Counted from the first letter of the stretch, positions 1,436-60,586 are shown. The stretch: 64,000 bases of DNA from Torpedo marmorata (GCA_977017645.1 OZ360246.1:14446001-14510000); one strand, 5' to 3'. The notes: generated by a model not told the origin, from the letters alone. A program made the numbers and translations.

Positions 1436-3689
1436 AACCCAGTCCCTCTGAACCTCCTCCACTCGATGAAAAGCAGACTAGCCTCTCCTCATAAATGAAA
1501 CGCCAGCCCAGGCAACATCCTGGTGATCCTCCTCTGCACCTTATTCAACACTATCAGATCCTTCCTATTGTGTGGTGACCAAAACCGCACCCAGTACTCC
1601 AGTTTTACAATGATCTGTTAGATCCACTCACAAGGGTCAATATGTCCTCGGTTTAACACTTCATCATCACACCACAGCTCCCTCACTACCGCACCAATGC
1701 CAACTCTCCCTTTGAAGGTGGAAGAGATTAGATTTTTCTCAACATTTGTATCTTCTCTGTAACTTTTGTGAAAGTAGATAAAGCACGAGGTATTTGTTGT
1801 TTAAATAATGGATCAGGGGCTTCAGAAAAGGTTAATGCTCAAGGTGCAGAATCCCTTTGAGGCTGACATTCCAAGGATTTTGCAAATTCATTTTCAATCA
1901 TTGTCTGCAGTCACCCATTAAATGGTCCTGTCATGTTTGCAATAAAGTGTTGGCACTGGTGAAATGCAACAAAAATTTTAACAAACTGGGTTGGTAGGAG
2001 GAGGGGGGGGGATATTGGGGAGAAGTTTTGAGAGAAGCCCAAGAATCAGAGTCTTGCTCTACTTATCTTGTTCTGTGATCTCATTCCTGGAATTCAGCAG
2101 CTGGTGGCTGAAGGGGTCTTTTAGACCATTCCTTATCTGGTTCAATCAACCAAATAGTTGATCTTAGTCAGGAGTTTCACCCTCCAAGGCCTGGCGCACA
2201 AAACACATAGGCAAAGGCCCGAAGTTCTGCTTCCTTTGCCTCACTAATGACTGTTTTGCACTGTGAGCTGGGTCAGTTTATTCAGTCTGCATATGAAGAA
2301 AGGCTCTCGAGTCTGGACCCCCTCCCTCTTTACCTGTCAAAGGATCAGAAACAGCCTACTCAGCCCCTCTTCTATTATTCTGTGAGATCATGGCTGACCA
2401 GCAAGTCTTTTTTCTATTACAGGAGTCATTGCTCCTCTTAATGTCCATCTTGCGTTCCACCAAAGTTAAAAACATGCTAAAGGCTGCGATTGGCATTCCG
2501 GCCTGAAGTCGAAAGGCTGCTGGTTCAAGGTTCACTTGTATTCAAAATTTAACACGGATGGCCCTGACAGGACAATTCACTGTTGGAGATGGCCTATTTC
2601 AGATTAAATCTCAAACTAAAGCCCCACCTGCTGTTATGGATGGATTTAAAAATTACTGCCATACTATTTCCATTTTTCACTGAGGCCTGCTCTTGACAGT
2701 AACTTGTCCATGCAACACCACAGGAGATCAGCTAATATATTACACAGGTTCCTTTAAATTTTACCACCGCAATAATTTAGCATCCTCACATATGATGGAA
2801 TCTATTCCAATCCTTGTTGGCTTATTATTAAATTTATATCATACCATAAATGTCTCAGCCTGAATACCAAAGTGAACATACATTATAGGAGCGCATCCTA
2901 CAAGATTTAGGAAGGGGACATCTTCCAGTATGTCAAAGATTTACCAATGGACTGTGAATAAAGCAGCTGTTTGTTGGCAGCCACTACGCACCCTCTTCCA
3001 GCAAAACATCTGGGCTCATTTAGCTAAAGTAAATCCCCAAAAGCAATAGAAGTATGTGGAAAGAGAAATCTTTTTTCTCTAACCACCATCTATGATCAAG
3101 TTAAACTATGTAAACCCCACAATATGTTTGCACATTCAGATACTTGGCTCCATGACAGAGCGTTATTTGTTGTAAAATTATTTGCTGCTTGATTCGTGAT
3201 TTGCTGCACGAATGGGCCTCATGCCCTGGCTGCAGAGTGACATCTGATCTTGCTTCGTGCAGAGATTGAGCCTGTCTTTGGCCTTCAGCGTCAATGAGAC
3301 ATTCCTGCCTCTGAGTGAAACCCCGCTTCACTCTAACTGGTACAGTCACTAACTCTCCAAGATTGCCCTGGAATCACTAGAAATTGAAGATTAGACTCTG
3401 GGACATTAATGTAACCACAACCTGACAAAAGAATGACACCATTAACAAAAGAAAAATCATTATTTTTTTCTGAAAGTTTTTTTTTAAAGTTGTTGGTATA
3501 AGGTCATTGACTGAAATTGAAGAATCAACCAGACAGATAAAGAAAGGATGACTAGTTTTCTGGAAGCAATCCACACCAATACAAGCATGAAGCAATCAGA
3601 AGTCAGGGCTGGGATCTTACTTGAGGGATGGAGTGGTAGGCAGTAATTGGAGGCACTATGTCATGTGATAAGACTTCTTTGACTACGCT

Positions 3690-4003
3690 CAATTGAGTGG
3701 AGACATAGAACTGTGGCTCAGAATTCTGGCAGACATCCGTGGAACACTCCCGCCCACTCCCACCATTAATTTATGGGAGATATTTATGCGGCTGCAGAGG
3801 CTGCGGGAGCGCTGGAGGAAAATCCACGGACACTCAGTGACTCTGAAGGGTCTCTCTTTTGCTTCTCTTTCTCTCTTATTGTAAGGGGAACCAGGCAACA
3901 CTAATGGCGACTCTTTGTCTGCCTTGCGGCAGGCAGAAGGCAATTTCGTGTAATATTACATGTTCTGTGCTATTACATGACAATAAAGGAATCTTCAGTC
4001 TTG
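3690..4003 (+). mobile_element. Non-autonomous retroposon sharing its 3' tail with 18727-18869 and 26832-27365
   Basis: Shared GGACACTC.GTGACTCTG..CTCTCTTTTGCTTCTCTTTCTCT..TGTCTGCCTTGCGGCAGGCA..TGACAATAAA. Confidence 0.65.
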
Positions 4004-4742
4004 GATCTTAAATATTGACCAAGGCATTTGTGAGTGAGATGTTAAGCATGTCAAGTTGCCCCGTCGGCTCCTGAGAGGGAATTGGGTGGAGTTTGTTACA
4101 CCCCACGGACTATACGCTGCTCTGTTCATTCAAAGATAAAGTCTGCAGCTGTGACTCTGAGAAAGCCAGATGACAAAGAAGAAACTGGAGAAAATCCTCT
4201 ATTAAATTAATGGAACAGACATCCCCATCTGTGAAAACAGGTGCTGGATATTCACAGAACTTCCTGAATTCCCAAGTGTTTCACTAAAAGTTTGAGGGAA
4301 TCCTAAATTTGCTGCTGGTATTGTCAGATTCTGAAACGGAGGCATTCCATGAGTCACGTAGTGGATGTCCCATTTCACCGGGCAAAGACAAATGGTAAAT
4401 AAACACTGTAGTCGACTAAAACAATGTGGAACTATCAGGGGAATTCCTGCAGTCCCTGATACCTGATTCCTATGTCACGGTGCAGATGAACTTTCCCACA
4501 GATAGAGAATGATGCATCACTCCTGAACTTCACTGGTTGTTAAACAAGCGCACAGATTGAACTACTATTGAAATATATAGTCGACAGTACCCCAAATCTC
4601 CATAGTCTCCACCACTCCAATATGTCCAGCTCTACTGTTTATGCTGAATGCCTCGTTTTAGCTATCTATTATTTTTCCAGAGTGGAAGTTCTATATAAAT
4701 GCAGTGTTGAAGTGTTAAAGATTCACACATCAATGACTGTTT

Positions 4743-21618: not shown

Positions 21619-22368
21619 ATGGAAAATGTCTTGAGACCCGACAAGCTGGACCTCGATCCGCAAACACCAGAGGCCGGCAATGCTTTCGAACTCTGGCTAG
21701 CCTGCTTTGAGTCGTTCCTGGAGAAAATCAAGGTGCACGAAGAAGCTTCAAAATGCAAAGTCCTCCTCTCTAGGGTCAGCCCACGGGTCTACTCGATGAT
21801 CCGAGACCTGCAGACCTACGAAGACGCGATAAACGCTCTTAAAAGACAATATATACGGCCAGTTAATACTGTATACGCGTGACACCGGTTAGCGACGCGG
21901 CAGCAGCGGCCCGGTGAGTCGAGCGCGGAGTTCGTCCAGGCCCTACAGACGCTCGTGCGGGCCTGCGATTGCCAGGGACTGACACCTGGAGAACACGCGG
22001 AGCTCCTGGTAAGAGATGCATTCATCACTGGAACCAGGTCGGTGTATGTGCGCCAGCGCCTGCTGGAACAAGCCGACCTCACCTTACGTTCGGCGATAGA
22101 GCTGGCCGATACGCTGGAAGCCGCGTTGCAGAACTCTGACGCTATCCGGGCGCACGATCTCCCGCCGGCTTCGTGGATCCCGCAGACCCCGCACTACACC
22201 AGTGAATCGACCACAGCTGCCGTCAGTCGCGAGTCCGAGAAGTGCTACTTCTGCAGACTCAAAAAGCACCCCCGGAAATGTTGCCCAGCCCGAGAAGCGA
22301 CCTGCACCAGCTGCGGGAAGAAAGGCCATTTCGCCAAGATCTGTAAGTCTAAACCGCGAGTGGGATAG
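21619..22368 (+). pseudogene. gag: Gypsy gag with two CCHC zinc knuckles, one internal stop
   Basis: CYFCRLKKHPRKCC and CTSCGKKGHFAKIC; in-frame TGA at 21880-21882. Confidence 0.85.
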
Positions 22369-22619
22369 AGCAGTGCCACATGCAAAGCATGCGGGTTGCC
22401 ATTGTTGCCGTCGCCATCATGCCCGATCGCTGCCACCATGTGTGAGACATGGGGCGGCCATCTTGTTCATCGTCACTTCCATCGCCGCCATCTTACATAC
22501 CCGCGGCCAACACGTGCGAGTCATGGGAGCGGTCATTTTGTTCGCCGCCATCGCGCCGACACGACCCACGGGTGCCGCCATCCCGGAACACCTGGCACTC
22601 CATCGCATCGGATCAAGAC

Positions 22620-25250
22620 AGCGACTCAACTTTGGCATCCGTTACCCTCGACCAAAGTGCACCCCACCAACTCGCGAGGTCTATGATGGACATTCTGGTG
22701 GAAGGACACAGGACAAGCTGCCTTTTCGACACGGGCAGCACGGAGAGCTTCATCCACCCAGACACGGTGCAGCGTTGCGGACTCACAACACAGCCGGTAA
22801 GCCAGAGGGTCGTCATGGCTTCTGGGTCCACACAACAGACATCCGGGGGGGTTGTGTAGTGACGCTAGTGGTGCAGGACACTGAATATCGGGACTTTACA
22901 CTATTGGTCATGCCCCGACTGTGTGCCCCTGTACTACTGGGGCTCGACTTCCAGAGCCACCTTCAAAGTGTGATGATGGAGTATGATGGGCCCCTCCCAC
23001 CAATCAATGTCGGTAACCATCAATTCCTCAAACATGGTAGACGTATCCCGCCACACCACATGCGCAGCCGCATCACAGACACTACTTGCGGCCTATCCAC
23101 CCTCAAGATCCATCCCCCAACGCTGTTCGCCAATCTGACCCCTGACTGTAAACCTGTGGCAACCAAAAGCAGGAGATACAGTGCAGGGGACAGGGCCTTC
23201 ATTAAGTCAGAGGTGCAGCGGTTGTTCAGGGAAGGGATCATTGAGGCGAGCACAAGTCCCTGGAGGGCCCAGGTGGTTGTCGTCAAGAACGGGGAGAAAA
23301 ATAGGATGGTGGTAGATTATAGTCAGACCGTCAATAGGTTCACGCAGCTCGACGTGTACCCTCTACCACGCATTGCGGATATGGTGAATCAGATAGCTCA
23401 GTACAAGCTATACTCCACTATAGACCTCAAATCTGCCTACCATCAGCTCCCCATCCTCTGGGAGGACCGCCCTTACACCACCTTCGAGGCGGACGGCAGG
23501 CTCTATCACTTCCTGCGCGTCCCCTTCGGGGTCACAAATGTGGTATCCGTCTTCCAGAGGGAGATGAACAGGATGGTGGACCAGTGCCAATTAAAGGCCA
23601 CGTTCCCATACCTGGACAATATTACTATCTGTGGTCACAACCGGCAGGACCATGATAACAATCTCCGGAAGTTCCTCCAGGCGGCCAAAATATTTAACCT
23701 CACTTATAACAAGGATAAGTGCGTGTTCGGAACCACCCGACTCGCTATCCTGGGGTGCGTTGTGGAGAACGGTGTCATCGGCCCCGACCCCAACTGCATG
23801 CTCCTCCTGCTGGAACTACCGCTCCCCCACATCCTCAGAGCCCTCAAAAGGTGCTCGGGCTTCTTCTCATATTATGTCCAATGGGTCCCTAATTATGCAG
23901 ACAAGGCCCACCCCCTAGTCAAGTCCACCACTTTTCCTCTCTCAGCTGAGGCACGCGCGGCCTTCAGCCTCATCAAAGAGGACATTGCCAAAGCAGCAAT
24001 GCACACAGTGGATGAGTCCACTCCCTTTCAAGTAGAGAGCGATGCGTCCGACTTCGCACTGGCTGCTACCCTCAACCAGGCGGGAAGACCGGTGGCGTTC
24101 TTCTCCCGTACCCTTCAAGGCCCAGAAATTCAGCACTGAGCGGTGGAGAAAGAGGCCCAAGCCATAGTGGAAGCTATCAGGCACTGGAGGCACTATCTTG
24201 CCGGAAAAAGGTTTACCCTGCTGACTGACCAGCGCTCAGTCGCATTTATGTTCAGCAATCAGCAGCGGGGCAAAATCAAAAACGATAAAATCCTGAGGTG
24301 GAGAATCAAACTCTCCACCTACAACTATGATATCATGTACCGGCCCGGGAAGTTCAACGAGTCCTCCGATGCCCTATCCCGGGGGACGTGCGCCAGCGCG
24401 CAGATCGACTGGTTATATGCCCTCCACTGCGACCTTTGCCACCCGGCTTTTCCACTTTGTGAAAGCTCGAAACCTGCCGTACTCCCTTGAAGAGGTCAGG
24501 ACGATGACCGGGAACTGCCAAGTCTGCCCGGAGTGCAAAACGCACTTCTACCGACCTGACAAGGCGCAGTTGATCAAAGCAACTCGCCCATTTGAGCGAC
24601 TGAGCGTCGACTTTAAGGGCCCCCTTCGCTCCACCGACCGCAATGTGTACTTTCTTAACATCATTGACGAGTACTCGCGGTTCCCTTTTGCCATTCCCTG
24701 CCCTAATACCATGACCACCTTGGTCATAAAAGCCCTACGCAAACTCTTCACATTGTTTGGATACCCCTGCTATATCCATAGTGACCGAGGGTACTCGTTT
24801 ATGAGCGACGAGCTGCGCCAATACCTGCTGGCCAGGGGTATCGTGACTAGCAGGACCACGAGCTATAACTCCCGGGGGAATGGACAAGTGGAGAGGGAGA
24901 ACGCCACGGTCTGGAAGGCCACACTCTTAGCCCTCAGGTCTAAGGGATTACCAGTCTCCCGCTGGCAGGAAGTCCTTCCCGAGGCACTCCACTCCATCCG
25001 CTCCCTGCTATGCACATCCACCAATGCCACCCCTCTTGAGAGACTCTTTTCCTTCCCCAGGAAGTCGATCACTGGGACTACCCTACCAGCATAGCTGACG
25101 TCCTCAGGGTCAGTGCTGCTCCGGAAACGTGAGGAGCAATAAATACGCCCCAATGGTCGAGAGGGTTCACCTACTACATGGGAACCCCCAGTACGCCTAT
25201 GTGGTTTTTCCTGATGGGCGGGAAGACATGGTCTCCATCCGGGACCTGGT
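22620..25250 (+). pseudogene. pol: Gypsy pol (PR-RT-RNaseH-IN), frameshifted, 3'-truncated, no 3' LTR
   Basis: LFDTGSTESF protease; RT SPWRAQVVVV..IDLKSAYHQ..PFG..YLDN; RNaseH ESDASDFAL; integrase SVDFKGP..HSDRG..NGQVEREN. Confidence 0.92.
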
Positions 25251-47559: not shown

Positions 47560-49480
47560 CCATATATTTCGACGTATAAGTCGACCGGCAGATAAGTCGA
47601 CCCACCTTTTTCAGCCTCATTTTAATGGTTTTATGATATATCCGGCGTATAAGTCGATCCCCAAAAATTGCGATGCCTGAGATGTTGCGCATTGACCGGC
47701 GTATAAGTCAACCCTCAAAAATCGCGATGATTGAGCAGTTGGGCGTTGACCGGCGTATAGGTCGACCCCCAAAAATCGCGATGATTGAGCTGCTGGGCGT
47801 TGACCGGCGTATAAGTCGACCCACAACGATCGCGCTGATTGAGCTGCTGGGCGTTGGCTGGCGGTGATTGTTATCATGGAGGGTCAATTGAAACGACGAA
47901 AGTATGAGGCGAGTTTTAAATTGAAAGTTATAGAAATGGCCAAGAAAACCAACAACTGTGCTGCTGCAAGAAAATTTGATATATACGAGAAGTTGGTAAG
48001 AGATTGGAGGAAGAAAGAAGATACTTTAAGAAAAATACCAAAAAGGCAATGTTCGATGAGAAGAGGAATCACTCGTTGGCCAGAGTTGGAAAATCACGTC
48101 GCAACATGGGTACGTGAACAGAGGCAAGATTGCTACATAGTCACCCGAAATAAAATAAGAACATTTGCACTGAACTGGGCAAAGTCGCACCCAGAACTCA
48201 GTAATGATTTTGAAGCTACAGTAGGCTGGTGCAACCGTTTTATGAACAGGAAAAATTTGGTATTACGACAAAAAACTAAAATTGCTCAGAAACTACCAAA
48301 AGATCTTGATCATAAAGTTGTAAGTTTTCACCAGTTTATATTACATAACCGGCAGAAACACAAGTTTGCATTGGCAAATATTGGAAACATGGACAAAACC
48401 CCCATGAATTTTGACATGATAGGCAATAGAACAGTGGAATGGAAAGGTGTGAAAACTGTGCAAACGAGGAGTACAAGACATGAAAGGACCAGGTTTACTG
48501 TGGTGTTATCGTGCATGGCTGACGGGACAAAGTTACGACCCATGGTAATCTTCAAACGCAAATTTAAACCTAAAATAAAATTCCCTGCAGGTATTTTTGT
48601 ACATTTTTATGAAAAAGGATGGATGGATGAAAATGGTGTAAAACTATGGATAGACAATGTGTGGAACAGGCGGCCAGGCGGTTTACGCAAGGAACGGAGT
48701 TTGCTGGTCTGGGATATGTTTCGTAGCCACTTAACTGAGAAGACTAAAAGTACATTAGCACAACATAATACTTACATGGCGGTTATCCCGGGTGGTTTGA
48801 CGTCTATATTGCAACCTCTCGATGTCTGCTTGAACAAGCCATTCAAAGACCACGTGCGTGAAGAGTGGAATACATGGATGACGAGTGCAGAAAAATCATT
48901 TACAAAAGACGGGGCAATGCGTGCTGCATCGCTTGATGTGCTGTGTGACTTCGTGCTCAAGGCATGGGACAAAGTGAAAGTAGAGACTGTAATAAAATCG
49001 TTTAAAAAGTGCGGTATCTCTTGTGCAATTGATGGTACGGAAGATGATTTATTGTGGGACACTGACGACGAAGCTGAAGACGCCTCATCAGATACAGACT
49101 GGGACCCATACAATGACTGTTTAAACAGTGAGACCCCGGATGTGCTTGCCGAGGTCTTTGCCTCAGACTATGATAGCGAAAGTGATTTTGAAGGGTTCTA
49201 AATGTCTTGTTGTTTTCAATAAAAATGTCAATGAAAATTTGTTGCAGTCGGGTTTTTTTTTGGTTTTTCAGGGGTCGACTTATACGCCGAATCATGTTTT
49301 CAGGGGTCGACTTATACGCCGAATCGTGTTTCAGGGGTCGACTTATACGCCGAATCGGCATGAACTCGATTTTGAGCTGATTTTAAGGTCTCAAAAGTAT
49401 ATCCGGTGTATAAGTCGACCCCCATTTTTTGAGACATTTTTGAGGGTTTCAAGGGTCGACTTATATGCCGAAATATACGG
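47560..49480 (+). mobile_element. pogo-superfamily (Passer/POGK-like) DNA transposon, full length
   Basis: TIRs CC[A/G]TATATTTCG..GTATAAGTCGAC, TA TSD at 47558-47559 and 49481-49482, subterminal repeats. Confidence 0.92.
47876..49201 (+). CDS. pogo-type DD35D transposase (Brinker-like DBD, CENP-B HTH, DDE_1 domain, acidic tail), 441 aa from first ATG
   Basis: RRKYEASFKLKVI; WCNRFMNR; GNMD, LLVWD, LQPLD with 35 residues between the last two Asp. Confidence 0.9.
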   Translation: MEGQLKRRKYEASFKLKVIEMAKKTNNCAAARKFDIYEKLVRDWRKKEDTLRKIPKRQCSMRRGITRWPELENHVATWVREQRQDCYIVTRNKIRTFALNWAKSHPELSNDFEATVGWCNRFMNRKNLVLRQKTKIAQKLPKDLDHKVVSFHQFILHNRQKHKFALANIGNMDKTPMNFDMIGNRTVEWKGVKTVQTRSTRHERTRFTVVLSCMADGTKLRPMVIFKRKFKPKIKFPAGIFVHFYEKGWMDENGVKLWIDNVWNRRPGGLRKERSLLVWDMFRSHLTEKTKSTLAQHNTYMAVIPGGLTSILQPLDVCLNKPFKDHVREEWNTWMTSAEKSFTKDGAMRAASLDVLCDFVLKAWDKVKVETVIKSFKKCGISCAIDGTEDDLLWDTDDEAEDASSDTDWDPYNDCLNSETPDVLAEVFASDYDSESDFEGF

Positions 49481-50258
49481 TAATTTCTCAAATTACCTTC
49501 CCTTGGAAAAAAATACTGGTTTTAATCTCTCATCTGCTACCCTGTTCATTGTAATCCTGTGAATGAACAGTGAAAGGAGCTGAACAGATGTGGAATGTTA
49601 CATAGAAGCTTTGAGATGTTGGGAAAGGAAGACTTTACTTTGTATTACAACTTTCATGGCATGTGGGCCCTAATAGCCTTACAGACTATGCAGTATATTT
49701 TTGCCGTTGTAATATAGGAAACTTAGTGGCCAGCTCATGCACAACAGGATCCCATGAATATTAACGTGGAAATACCTGGTAATCTATTTATGGTATCACT
49801 GGCTGATGGACAAATACTGTCTGGGAAAATTCACTTTCTATTCTTACTCCCACCTGAGAGGGTCCTTGATTTAACACCCAAGAGCAATCATCTCCGACAA
49901 TTCACCTCTGCCCCCAACCTTCTGAGCAGTGGCGGATCAACCATTAGGCTGACTAGGCTGAAGCCTAGGGGCCCGGAGGGTAAAGGGGCCCGAGCCGCCT
50001 GATTTTTCAGTACTTTTGTATATATTATTTTCATTACAAATACTATTTTGTTATCTAAATTAGGGTCCAAACATATAAACATTTAGAAGTAAACAAGTAA
50101 TGCGTTTAGGGACTTACTTCGTACTGCAGGCTGCAGCCACGACTCCCCGTGAAATTGTGTTTACCATCTCCATGATGACGTTATTACGTCATCACCCGTC
50201 GCACGTCACGACGAGTTGGCGCTAGCAATGAAAAAGTGAGTCTGAGGTCTGCCTCCTG

Positions 50259-50608
50259 TCCTGCAGCTCCGAGCCGCCGCCGTGGCCGAGCGTTACCCCC
50301 AAACCCCAAAATGCGCCCGCTGACGCAACCACGGCGTGGTCTCTCTCGGTGCTCAAGGATCACAAGCGCATGTGTGATCGCCGAGAGGCAGCGGGTCATG
50401 GCTGCACAGGTGGCTCTCCGGCGGCAGCAAGCGCAAGAAGAGAATGAGGCCAGGGAGGTGCAGTATATGTACGCCGGAGCAGGGGCTGCTGAAGCCAGCC
50501 TAGCCATGGCGGCAGCTGCCGCGGCCGCCAACGGCATAATCCCGGCATTGAGGGCCGGCTCGACGCCCTACGAAATTTTTGGAGCCGACTACCAGAAGCA
50601 GAAGGAAG
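50259..50608 (+). pseudogene. Captured DM-domain exon fragment of a DMRTA-subfamily gene (DMRTA1/DMRTA2-like), disrupted
   Basis: [31 protein letters not shown][deletion][40 protein letters not shown]; ends at the splice donor AAG|GTAAGT (50609). Confidence 0.9.
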
Positions 50609-51012
50609 GTAAGTCAGCAACTGCCATAATCATTTGAAGGCTATTCACCTGCTAATACAGTTTGTGGGAAAGCTGCTTTCTTATCTCTGATTAATTGTTT
50701 AGGTTCTTGTTCATGATTTCTCAGCTTGTTTGGTTTGAATTCGTTTATTACACTATTTCCGACACCGTTCACAATTACTACACAAAGGTTGCAGTAAGGA
50801 AATCAATGCTGTAATCCAATTTGGATTCTGCAGTTGCAACTTTTTAAACTTTCTATTGTTGGTTAAACATTTCCAATCTTAACTCTGAAATCAACTAATC
50901 AACCAGCATTCTATGTTACTAGTATCGCTCCACTATCTGCCCTCCTCCCGCGTCTGCATCTGGGGCCACGGCGGGTTTCCGCGGTCTCCCACCTGGCCTG
51001 AGCAGCACGGCG

Positions 51013-51256
51013 ACCTCTCCCTGCCCAGCGGGACGGGGGACGGGCCCACCTCTCCCTGCCCAGCAGGACGGGGGCTGGCGACCTCTCCCTGCCCAGCGGG
51101 ACGGGGGACGGGCCCACCTGTCCCTGCCCAGCGGGACGGGGGACGGGCCCAACTCTCCCTGCCCAGCGGGACGGTGGACGGGCCCACCTCTCCCTACCCA
51201 GCAGGACGGGGACCAGCGACCTCTCCCTGCCCAGCGGGATGGGGGACGGGCCCACC
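51013..51256. repeat. 33-35-bp GC-rich tandem repeat inside the hAT element, about 7 copies
   Basis: ACCTCTCCCTGCCCAGCGGGACGGGGGACGGGCCC and variants. Confidence 0.9.
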
Positions 51257-51617
51257 GCTTTAACATTTCGTTGAAATTGGCAGGGTCATAAAAAAAGGTT
51301 GCACATTAAATTAACTGTTGGATTTATATAATGTTAAACTAAATCAGTGATTTCTCTTCAAATAATACAACCAAAGGTGATAGCGATTGTTTGAACTTTA
51401 ATATGTCTACGTTTTTAATCATCGTTGTGCGGTGATTTTGTATAATCAAGTTTTATTAATAAATGAAAGCCGACTTCGTTCCTTCGCTGCAGGGATATTT
51501 GGTCTGTTATTATTTGTGCGACAGTTGTAGAAAACGTGTAATGTATAAATTGTTTTGAACGAAATCTCAGCAAACCGAAAGGGAGAAGCCGAAATTGCGT
51601 TTGTAAATTGAGTTGTA

Positions 51618-51790
51618 AAATCACAATGCTGGAGGAACTCAGCAGGTCTCGCAGCGTCCGTAGGAGGTGAAGATGTATTACTGACGTTTCGGGCCTGAGC
51701 CCTTCTTCAAGGTATCTTTACCTCCTGTGGACGCTACGAGACCGGCTGAGTTCCTCCAGCATTTCTGTGTTTTACCACAGTCACAGCGTC
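51618..51790. mobile_element. Penelope pLTR-like palindromic fragment of another subfamily inside the hAT element
   Basis: TGCTGGAGGAACTCAGC..GACGTTTCGGGCCTGAGCCCTTCTTCAAG..GCTGAGTTCCTCCAGCA. Confidence 0.6.
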
Positions 51791-53499
51791 GGACGAAGGG
51801 TGGGGCAAGGTCAGGGGAAGGGGGGGGGGTGCTTACTAAAGCTCAGCCTAGGGCCCAGGTGGTAGTTAATCCGCCACTGCTTCTGAGTGATGAGCTGTAA
51901 TACCAATCAAGGCCACAGATTAAACTTTTGAACCCTCTGATGTCAACCTCCAAGCAGCTGGACTTTAATGAATCATTTTTCAGCACCTTTGGTTGAGGCA
52001 ATAACACCAGCACTGTTACCCCACAGGCTCCCACCACTGTAGAGAATTGGAATTTCAGGTTGTCTTTCCTGTGGAGTATCATGTGGAAGAAGCCCTTCCT
52101 CCCTGCTCTCCTTTCATTCCTTGCACAGATGCCAGAATACGCCATACAAGAGTTCTCAAGGTCAGTACATTTTAAATGTAAAATGAAAACAAAGCTATTT
52201 AGTCTTAACATTCTGAAGCAGATTAATTTAGTTTGCATTAATCTGCCTGAAAAAAGTCATTAAACCTTACAAAAAAAAATGTTTCTATAATTCCCTCATA
52301 AAACCTGAGATATTTTGGCATCATTTATTGGGTAAAATCTAAACCTAGCACAGAAATCTTGAGTAGTGATTGCAATAGTTTGAATTAATTTTCACTCCAA
52401 GCACACGTGTGTGCACGTTTTGTATGTGTGCGCGCCCGTGCGTGTGCACGTGTTAAGAAGTTACCATGGATGGCATTATGCTAAGCTACACAGGTCGATA
52501 ACAGATCCCTGAGTCTGCTACTTTAATAAAAATTAGCTTAAATGTTTTGGCACATTTACCATTTTTTAAAATATATTTTCAGAATGTGGGCATTGCTAAC
52601 AAGGCTCATGATTATTTCTGATCCCGGGTTCATTGAAGAAAATAATGACAGGTCAAAGCCAGGACAGTTCCTTCAATGAAAGTGGGAGGAGCAGGTCCAT
52701 TGCGATGCAGTTGCATTAAGAGAGAAGGGGTATTTAGGTTTGCCAACTCTGGAGTTGACCTAATTTTTCCAATTACCCCAAATTACTAATTCATGGAATT
52801 AGTTGCTCAACACATGTCAGTGCATTGCATTCCCAGTCAATTGGAGAGGGAAAAGCCTCCTCATTATAAATTGGAAGCTGCATCTACAGAAACATTGAAA
52901 TCTCCAATATTACAATTGGTCCAACAAGATAAAGCCTCCCCATCTCTGCATACCTCTGCCAATTTCAGCCACTGTTTTCTCTCTAGATCTCTCCTGTCAT
53001 CCTGTATATGCATCAAAACTTCCAGCTTCCACCATTCCATGCAGTGTTCTTCCTTCAATCTGTATGAAACAATTCCTTGTTAAGTTCTTTACTTGATCTG
53101 TTACTGATTACTTCACATTTATCTCCCTTATGCTTCATTCATTCCCTGGAAACATCTATCCGTTTGTATTTCTTCACACCACTAGGCTTCTGTCAGGAGA
53201 AAAACAGCCCACTCTCCCAAAAACCTCTGGTAGCTCACTCCCCAGATTCCAGCAGCAGCCCTACAAATATTTCCTGCTCCTTAACTGCATCAATATCCTT
53301 TGTGGTTTCAAGCAAATAAAATAAAACAACAGCATGCAGCAGACTCCAGTTCTCTAAACGCTGGATGGACATTTACACTCCTGATCCAACAGTATCCCAG
53401 AAGGAATCGTGAAGATGATCAATTGGACCTCCAGATAAAGATAGGAGGCCTAGTTCAAACTGTCGGCATAATATCCAGGTGTGAGTAGCACTATGTGAA

Positions 53500-59878: not shown

Positions 59879-60586
59879 CAGTGGCGGATTAACTACCACC
59901 CGGGCCCAAGGCTGAGCTTTAGTAAGGCCTCCCCTGACCTTGCCCCCCTGCCCCACGGCCCCCACCCTTCGTTGAATAGAATAAAGTGAAATTGTTCCAT
60001 TTATTATCCTTTGGGCGTGATGCCCTCACATATTCTAAATTTATCCGCCGAGTATGTGCTGGGAATACACCAGTTGGTGTTTGGTTGGAGGAGGGGAGGA
60101 AAAACTTCATTAAAATCAAACAAAACTTTACCTTACAGAAGCCGTCTGCTAGCCCCGAATAATTTTAAAAGTCTGTTAGTTACAAAAGGATAAATAAAAT
60201 CAATTCTAAAAAAACAGTCTCGATACAAAGTAACACAGGAGAAGGGAGAGTCTTTTTTAAAAAAGTAAACCTCCCGTGAGCGACACTCCATGAGCCAAGC
60301 TCTGCTGCAGGAGGCAGACCTCAGACACGCGCACGCATACAAATGCGAGCATTGATTGACAGGTAGCATTGGGACTGGCGGAGCCCGAATTGATAGATAG
60401 GACCGAGACCCCGCTGCTGATTGACAGGTGAACGCTGTACTTCCGCGAACCTTGATTGGCGGTGGACCCAGGACTAACGCGAGCCCATATTGACAAGTGG
60501 TTACATTGGTGTACCAGTGGTTGTGACCCTTACCTTCCGGGCCCCTCGGCTTCAGCCTACTCAGCCTAATGGTTAATCTGCCACTG
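59879..60586 (-). mobile_element. Second copy of the CAGTGGCGGAT hAT family, with a different interior
   Basis: Both ends match 49927-51879 in reverse orientation; TSD GATAGAGT/GATAGAGC (7/8). Confidence 0.88.

What the first reader, a model, noticed from the sequence alone, without database searches (positions are those of the whole stretch)
49927..51879. hAT transposon carrying a captured DMRT (DM-domain) exon with its splice donor
Seen: an element bounded by CAGTGGCGGAT TIRs and a perfect 8-bp TSD (CTTCTGAG), with no transposase. Inside (50259-50608) is a clear DMRTA coding segment: [65 protein letters not shown]. It ends at AAG|GTAAGT and continues into AT-rich, intron-like DNA. The zinc-binding part is broken by TGA at 50321, a frameshift and loss of the CRW.DC.C.KC segment, while the helical tail stays open. 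Known: gene-fragment capture by TIR elements (Pack-MULE/Pack-TIR) is well described in plants and much less in vertebrates; DM-domain duplicates have repeatedly become sex determinants (medaka dmy, Xenopus dm-W, which has a hAT-derived exon). Inference: the donor site implies DNA-level rather than mRNA capture, and the family may have spread DMRT fragments across the genome as a source of exon shuffling or small RNAs.
Basis: partly seen in the sequence, partly recalled or inferred. Interest (0 to 1): 0.88.

Follow-up and report, generated by a model that had tools for sequence, protein, structure and literature searches.

The report
Transposon mass-copying a DMRTA1 exon
In what is likely a ray genome, a small cut-and-paste transposon holds the DNA-binding exon and intron start of the developmental gene DMRTA1 and sits at dozens of separate sites (an estimated 80); the copies look like they are decaying, but they show plant-style gene-fragment capture at a copy number far above the vertebrate cases I found described.

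Summary
Confirmed and extended. The 1,953-bp element has 15-bp TIRs and a perfect 8-bp TSD. Its cargo matches the genome's DMRTA1 (dmrt4) gene across exon 1 (first 40 codons missing) and into intron 1, so capture was from DNA. I recovered 60 copies; 23 of 35 with both ends have perfect TSDs. About 80 insertions are estimated, plus 31 matches to one degenerate copy spread with a duplicated block. The parent gene, a cargo-free sister MITE matching both junctions, and a transposase-coding hAT with the same ends were all found. An older form carries 1.03 kb of the gene; the window's form is a later chimera. The broken DM domain is copy-specific: the family majority is intact, but the DM part decays neutrally (N/S ratio 1.06) and 0 of 60 copies has an ATG-led DM frame. 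Sister families carry actin-like-7B, CRAL-TRIO and GPCR pieces (10 of 89 sampled elements hold host coding DNA). The scan noted other Pack-hATs in this genome, but no look-alike of this one. It is a Pack-TIR, a known kind; copy number and preserved intermediates are the unusual part. No function is shown.

The parts
49919..49926 (+). 5' target-site duplication CTTCTGAG
   Evidence: row L001, 0 mismatches
49927..49941 (+). left TIR (15 bp, one mismatch to the family majority)
49927..49996 (+). left terminal 70 bp shared (90-93%) with transposase-coding elements L214, L215, L216
49997..50266 (+). left arm shared with the cargo-free MITE L150; 50172-50239 resembles the CpG-rich stretch upstream of the transposase ATG; ends in a pyrimidine-rich CAG just before the cargo
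   Evidence: promoter or acceptor activity is inferred only
50267..50608 (+). captured DMRTA1 exon 1 (poly-Ala, DM domain, tail), no ATG; broken in this copy by TGA at 50321 and +4, -21, -14 nt indels
50609..50929 (+). splice donor and first ~320 bp of DMRTA1 intron 1
   Evidence: element 347-1003 is 87% to the parent; family majority 96% over 692 columns
50938..51879 (+). right arm taken from a sister, DMRT-free subfamily: GC-rich ~35-bp minisatellite (51015-51256), AT-rich stretch, 50-bp-arm hairpin (51625-51763), right subterminal region
51865..51879 (-). right TIR
51880..51887 (+). 3' target-site duplication CTTCTGAG
59879..60586 (-). second member of the same TIR group in the window: 708-bp cargo-free MITE carrying both junction-flanking motifs; TSD with one mismatch
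   Evidence: same type as L186/L187

Best explanation
This is a non-autonomous hAT transposon that carries exon 1 and the start of intron 1 of DMRTA1, likely acquired by template switching during DNA repair, then amplified by a related hAT transposase to an estimated 80 sites, where it now appears to decay neutrally. Steps: (1) a ~760-bp MITE (L150 type) had its middle ~290 bp replaced by 1.03 kb of DMRTA1 (junctions shown; repair mechanism inferred from short microhomologies); (2) this 'type B' element transposed (shown by TSDs); (3) a copy swapped its right half for that of a sister DMRT-free element, giving 'type A', the window's form, which transposed further (chimeric structure shown; order inferred from closeness to the parent); (4) copies accumulated CpG decay, stops, frameshifts and nested insertions; one copy was later multiplied passively inside a large duplicated block near chromosome ends. 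The same TIR group also packed other host exons.
For: Parent: L003/L036 has no TIR, a full exon 1 with ATG, and a DMA+DMB exon 3.3 kb downstream; best hit Callorhinchus DMRTA1, 68%, against 41% for its DMRTA2. Family majority is 96% identical to it across the exon-intron boundary; type B copies extend 634 bp into the intron. TSDs: 23 perfect and 9 one-mismatch of 35. Acceptor MITE: shares element 1-341 and the last 135 bp; microhomology 6 of 7 nt at the 5' junction and 4 nt at the 3' junction. Transposase partner: L215+L222, 8,934 bp, perfect TSD, same ends, DUF4371 and hAT dimerisation domains; L322 likewise. Neutral decay: DM part 102 synonymous/305 non-synonymous against 106/300 expected, 21 stops against 17.6 (52 copies); star-like tree.
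Against: The repair mechanism is not observable: the locus where capture happened is unknown, and the microhomologies are short enough to be partly chance. The transposase copies found are all broken (two stops in L215), and they share only the ends and a short internal motif with the Pack element, so the actual mobiliser is inferred. The tail after the DM domain shows a ratio of 0.78 and 6 stops against 12 expected, a weak departure from neutrality, though shared mutations are counted repeatedly. The tree has little support, so 'B before A' rests mainly on structure. Only 60 of an estimated 80-110 loci were examined.
Confidence: 0.88

Rival explanations
1. One or a few copies have been co-opted: spliced into a host transcript through the TE-derived CAG and the captured donor, or read from the element's own promoter-like region, giving a DM-only protein (dm-W-like) or RNAs that tune dmrt4.
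For: The majority sequence keeps all eight zinc ligands. 10 of 60 copies hold all eight in one stop-free frame; 4 of 56 keep the whole captured frame open with no DM indel. The donor GTAAGT is kept in nearly all copies. Tan et al. report many Pack-TIRs transcribed as chimeras (PMC8277862, passages).
Against: 0 of 60 copies has a Met upstream of the ligands in frame. DM ratio 1.06. 32 of 60 copies share a 7-nt deletion and 22 of 60 a 4-nt insertion in the DM region, so transposition went on after the frame was lost. A few intact frames are expected at 2.5% divergence. The cassette would enter in phase 0 and leave in phase 1. No host gene was found among 15 of 70 window ORFs scanned. Sharks and rays are reported to use an old X-dosage system (PMC12318234, passages).
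Confidence: 0.08
2. Capture arose from two neighbouring insertions flanking the DMRTA1 segment that moved as one unit (end-bypass or neighbouring-insertion model), not from template switching.
For: Such a model is proposed for plant Pack-TYPE elements (PMC8903248; I saw only the section heading). The A form is a fusion of halves from two sister elements.
Against: The 50 kb around the parent holds no arm or TIR of the element. Both junctions fall inside one MITE type, not at element ends, and carry microhomology. No internal TIR or TSD relic sits at either junction.
Confidence: 0.07
3. The copies are processed pseudogenes or segmental duplicates of DMRTA1 that happen to lie in transposons.
For: 31 matches on chromosome ends and small contigs do behave as segmental duplicates: the same 5' flank and up to 99% identity over 10 kb.
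Against: Intron retained, exon 2 absent, no poly-A, identical junctions in all copies, and 52 distinct 5' 8-mers among 55 left ends.
Confidence: 0.01

Closest known systems
Animal Pack-TIRs, hAT class (Tan et al. 2021, PMC8277862; abstract, parts 1-2 of 10 and passages read), e.g. multicopy Pack-hAT-N8_XT of Xenopus tropicalis
   Same: Non-autonomous hAT ends around host DNA, distant parent, distinct TSDs, microhomology at breakpoints, GC-rich cargo.
   Different: They found 4 multicopy cases among 370 Pack-TIRs in 100 genomes, with 3-5 copies in the frog examples I read and a median cargo of 224 bp. Here: 60 copies recovered, ~80 estimated, 0.66-1.03 kb of cargo with a complete DNA-binding domain, and acceptor, transposase partner and secondary chimera all still present.
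Plant Pack-TYPE elements (Pack-MULE, Pack-hAT; Gisby and Catoni 2022, PMC8903248; abstract and section 8 read)
   Same: One TIR group with many different interiors, 5' exons and CpG-rich DNA as cargo, chimeras between elements, hAT clusters of high copy number.
   Different: Vertebrate host. Silencing cross-talk with the parent and contribution to genes are untested here.
Drosophila Ssk-FB4 (PMC8277862, passages)
   Same: TIR element that captured coding exons with intron DNA and transposed repeatedly.
   Different: Ssk-FB4 holds almost the whole gene, is translated and under selection; this element holds a start-less first exon that decays neutrally.
Xenopus dm-W (Hayashi et al. 2022, PMC9250109; abstract only)
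   Same: DM-domain DNA next to hAT-derived sequence.
   Different: dm-W is a single dmrt1-derived gene that gained an exon from non-coding hAT-10 DNA; it is not a mobile element carrying a DM exon. Here the parent is dmrt4 and no gene product is shown.

Membership tests
hAT superfamily | 8-bp TSD | tested here: met
   23 perfect, 9 one-mismatch of 35 copies with both ends; 27 perfect, 13 one-mismatch of 45 sister elements with both ends
hAT superfamily | short TIRs starting CAG | tested here: met
   15-bp TIR
hAT superfamily | partner element with the same ends encoding a transposase with the hAT dimerisation domain | tested here: met
   L215: PF05699 E 7e-11, over cut-off, plus PF14291; both ends and TSD; L322
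hAT-Tip100 subgroup | placement of the transposase in the Tip clade | not tested
   label recalled from the DUF4371 domain make-up; no tree was built
Pack-TIR | internal non-TE sequence with an identifiable parental locus | tested here: met
   DMRTA1 at G000:C2:256.478 Mb, 96% to the family majority
Pack-TIR | TE sequence on both sides; parent not flanked by the TE | tested here: met
multicopy Pack-TIR | repeated transposition shown by distinct TSDs | tested here: met
   52 distinct 5' 8-mers among 55 left ends
multicopy Pack-TIR (FoSTeST model) | no empty TE at the orthologous Pack sites in outgroups | not testable with these tools
   no relatives' genomes are held for G000
DMRTA1/dmrt4 (parent) | DM + DMA + DMB domains, closer to DMRTA1 than DMRTA2, tandem second DM gene | tested here: met
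   a separate DMRTA2-like gene on C22; second DM+DMA locus ~30 kb downstream fits the dmrt4-dmrt93B tandem of PMC6737965 (passages)
functional DM-domain duplicate (dm-W/dmy type) | translatable DM frame under purifying selection | tested here: not met
   0 of 60 with an upstream in-frame Met; ratio 1.06
functional DM-domain duplicate (dm-W/dmy type) | gonadal expression and sex linkage | not testable with these tools
   no sexed data and no run on record as RNA

The most novel reading that the evidence does not exclude
This ray lineage went through a plant-like Pack-hAT burst (thousands of elements, hundreds with host exons) that scattered about a hundred splice-ready DM-domain cassettes, and at least one was co-opted as a dm-W-like truncated DM protein or as a source of RNAs regulating dmrt4. 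The burst alone I put at about 0.8; the probability given is for the full reading including co-option.
Probability: 0.07. Interest if true: 0.92.

Novelty: new variant of a known kind. Interest (0 to 1): 0.63.

Why it matters
Multicopy Pack-TIRs were reported as very rare in vertebrates (4 of 370 in PMC8277862). Here one hAT group of roughly 3,300-4,500 elements has high-copy families carrying DMRTA1, actin-like-7B, CRAL-TRIO and GPCR coding pieces, which looks like plant Pack-TYPE behaviour in a vertebrate. The parent, the empty acceptor, the transposase partner, the first capture and a later chimera all survive, so capture mechanisms can be tested directly. About a hundred DM-box copies will also confuse DMRT gene counts, read mapping and sex-marker searches in this lineage. 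A co-opted copy would be a new route to DM-domain regulators, but nothing here shows one.

Tried and rejected
Pfam on the window's own fragments: no DM hit, pieces too short or broken. Retrocopy and plain segmental duplication: rejected for dispersed copies. DMRTA2 as parent: rejected. Left arm as a second captured gene: I first read its ATG and GTGAGT as another first exon; it matches the cargo-free MITE and the stretch upstream of the transposase, so it is TE DNA. ATG-led DM protein from an element: 0 of 60. Expression: one search listed no RNA holder (17 runs, none with half the words). In one search one run only guessed to be RNA gave two contigs that stop at about the donor and at the 5' junction and go on in other sequence; that fits the parent's own transcript but was not confirmed, and no listed contig of that run joins arm and cargo (table cut). 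None of this counts for or against expression. Parents of the actin-like and CRAL-TRIO cargo were not located among 20 loci each (L275 shows no TIR and was not followed up). Right ends of L214 and L216 were not found within about 15 kb. Scripts ended in errors (31 after printing the results cited). Literature searches listed no paper on a DMRT-carrying transposon or on Pack-hATs in cartilaginous fish; the library lacks most subscription journals, and I did not open supplements (the species list of PMC8277862 may bear on whether rays were surveyed; 'elephant shark' does not occur in its main text).

Full report
Observation. The element is as described: TSD CTTCTGAG on both sides, 15-bp TIRs, a DMRTA-type coding piece at 50267-50608 broken by TGA at 50321 and by +4, -21 and -14 nt indels, then a GT donor at 50609. 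The window lies in a 6.2-Gb genome. The host is likely a ray: the parent's best hit is Callorhinchus DMRTA1 and a sister cargo is 86% identical to Narcine actin-like 7B.

Parent. A search with the cargo gave 40 scored matches of 120 candidates. One of the 30 loci fetched, L003, has a full first exon with ATG and no TIR, and a DMA-domain exon 3.3 kb downstream. It has DM, DMA and DMB domains and is DMRTA1/dmrt4: 68% to Callorhinchus DMRTA1 against 41% to its DMRTA2, with a separate DMRTA2-like gene on C22. The majority sequence of the 30 loci is 96% identical to the parent over 692 columns, straight through the exon-intron boundary; the window copy is 87%. The capture starts 120 nt after the ATG, so it lacks promoter and start codon. 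Intron DNA present and exon 2 absent means capture from DNA, not mRNA.

Copy number. A 25-nt exon-intron pattern with up to one mismatch gave 98 matches: the parent, 66 ordinary copies, and 31 of one variant on chromosome ends and small contigs. I looked at 10 of those 31; all carry the left end. The four aligned in detail are one degenerate, truncated copy with the same 5' flank, inside a block up to 99% identical over 10 kb. Of 29 copies found independently through the left arm, 24 would pass the pattern, which gives about 80 ordinary copies, probably a low figure. After merging, 61 of 96 loci hold the fragment: the parent and 60 copies. Both ends were in reach for 35: 23 perfect TSDs, 9 with one mismatch, 1 with two, 2 with none.

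How it was built. A cargo-free MITE of about 760 bp (L150; 587 candidates and 30 loci for its interior; another sits in this window at 59879-60586) shares element positions 1-341 and the last 135 bp with the older form. In 12 of 48 copies typed, 'type B', the MITE's middle is replaced by 1.03 kb of DMRTA1: 395 bp of exon and 634 bp of intron. The junctions carry 6-of-7 and 4-nt microhomologies. The other 36, 'type A', including the window copy, follow type B to position 1011 and then switch to the right arm of a DMRT-free sister family. L121 joins a longer piece of the MITE to a point inside the DM domain, a further sign of switching between templates. No arm of the element lies within the 50 kb around the parent. 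I infer template switching during gap repair; the founder site is unknown, so gap filling and FoSTeST cannot be told apart.

Mobiliser. Of 30 loci from a DUF4371 search, three share an internal motif with the left arm and, once extended, the same left 70 bp. L215 is 8,934 bp with both ends and a perfect TSD and codes a transposase interrupted by two stops, with DUF4371 and hAT dimerisation domains. L322 is a 3,152-bp relative with a perfect TSD. No intact transposase copy was seen.

Is the cargo under selection? The majority differs from the parent at 4 of 351 coding positions and keeps all eight zinc ligands. For 52 copies (9 of 61 dropped: parent, four block copies, one duplicate, three interrupted or truncated), non-CpG divergence is 2.5% and CpG divergence 12%. 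The DM part shows 102 synonymous and 305 non-synonymous changes against 106 and 300 expected (ratio 1.06), and 21 stops against 17.6. The tail shows 0.78 and 6 stops against 12; shared changes are counted more than once, so this is weak. A 7-nt deletion is in 32 of 60 copies and a 4-nt insertion in 22 of 60, in all combinations, which points to spread after frame loss and to slippage or exchange between copies. Ten of 60 copies keep all eight ligands in a stop-free frame; none has an in-frame Met before them. The tree of 52 sequences is star-like with little support.

Wider family. The left 25-mer occurs exactly 1,428 times (control 0). Exact retention is 24 of 55 in this family and about a third in four others, so the group has roughly 3,300-4,500 members. 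Of the first 90 listed ends (C1 and C2 only) I compared 89: 2 carry DMRTA1, 6 an actin-like piece, 1 a CRAL-TRIO N-terminus and 1 a rhodopsin-family GPCR piece, so 10 of 89 hold recognisable host coding DNA. This is a floor: only representatives were scanned (147 of 284 frames; 215 of 238). The actin-like and CRAL-TRIO cargoes are multicopy families with TSDs (13 and 14 of 20 loci with both ends); their parents were not located. Earlier AI notes list other Pack-hATs in this genome (DNAH10, MASTL, ZNHIT3, RAPSN, FZD8, MROH1), which I did not check; none resembled this sequence.

Other organisms. Contigs from runs labelled organism A (1 listed) and organism B (3 listed) span the arm-to-DMRTA1 junction (table cut), so the capture is not an artefact of this assembly and is probably shared by more than one species.

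Comparison. This meets every Pack-TIR feature I could test. Tan et al. (PMC8277862) found 4 multicopy cases among 370, with 3-5 copies in the examples I read; plant Pack-hATs reach clusters of over a hundred (PMC8903248, section 8). dm-W (PMC9250109, abstract) is a different thing: a dmrt1 duplicate that gained a hAT-derived exon. Sex in sharks and rays is reported to depend on X dosage (PMC12318234, passages), which lowers the prior for a DM-based switch. Six searches listed no report of this element.

Verdict. Real, well supported, a high-copy variant of a known kind. The scale and the surviving intermediates would interest transposon specialists; the sex-determination angle is unsupported. 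Expression and sex linkage remain open. Interest 0.63.

Noticed in passing
G000:C2:256446544-256448300 (L035, L038): A second DM+DMA locus about 30 kb downstream of DMRTA1, same strand, with a frameshift and a stop in or just after the DM region; position fits dmrt93B (tandem with dmrt4 in PMC6737965), here apparently broken.
   Followed up: partly
G000:C22:158141557 (L034, L043): A DMRT3-like DM+DMA gene besides the one on C2; may be a retained paralogue.
   Followed up: no
L117-L120, L228-L233 (C31, C41, C52, C53, C81, C82 and small contigs): One degenerate DMRTA1-Pack copy, cut just after the donor and fused to an expanded minisatellite, is spread in a large duplicated block, several within 100 kb of contig ends (31 pattern matches).
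   Followed up: partly
L116/L264-L283: Sister family of ~2.1 kb carrying most of an actin-like-7B coding sequence in antisense; 6 of 89 sampled ends, so likely more abundant than the DMRT family.
   Followed up: partly
L061/L284-L303: Sister family carrying an ATG-led CRAL-TRIO N-terminal exon followed by a donor-like GT (TTPA-like label recalled; PDB hits weak); several C45 copies share one TSD, so they are segmental duplicates.
   Followed up: partly
L358:876-1442 (-): 2,194-bp element with perfect TSD carrying the first transmembrane helices of a rhodopsin-family GPCR (adenosine-receptor-like by recall).
   Followed up: no
window 47843-49470: pogo/Tc5-type element with an open 452-residue frame (BrkDBD, HTH_Tnp_Tc5, DDE_1) and 32-bp subterminal repeats, ending about 450 bp before the Pack element.
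   Followed up: no
window 21800-25100: Gypsy-type retroelement remnant (RT, RNase H, integrase).
   Followed up: no
window 51625-51763: Hairpin with 50-bp arms inside the right arm, made of an abundant short repeat that also occurs in the parent region.
   Followed up: no
L160, L165: Right ends of this TIR group sit about 1.3 kb upstream of transposases of another DUF4371 family, with the same flanking sequence in both loci; possibly a composite element.
   Followed up: no
L024, L315: Rearranged elements: L024 has an inverted left half; L315 is bounded by two left ends 790 bp apart.
   Followed up: no
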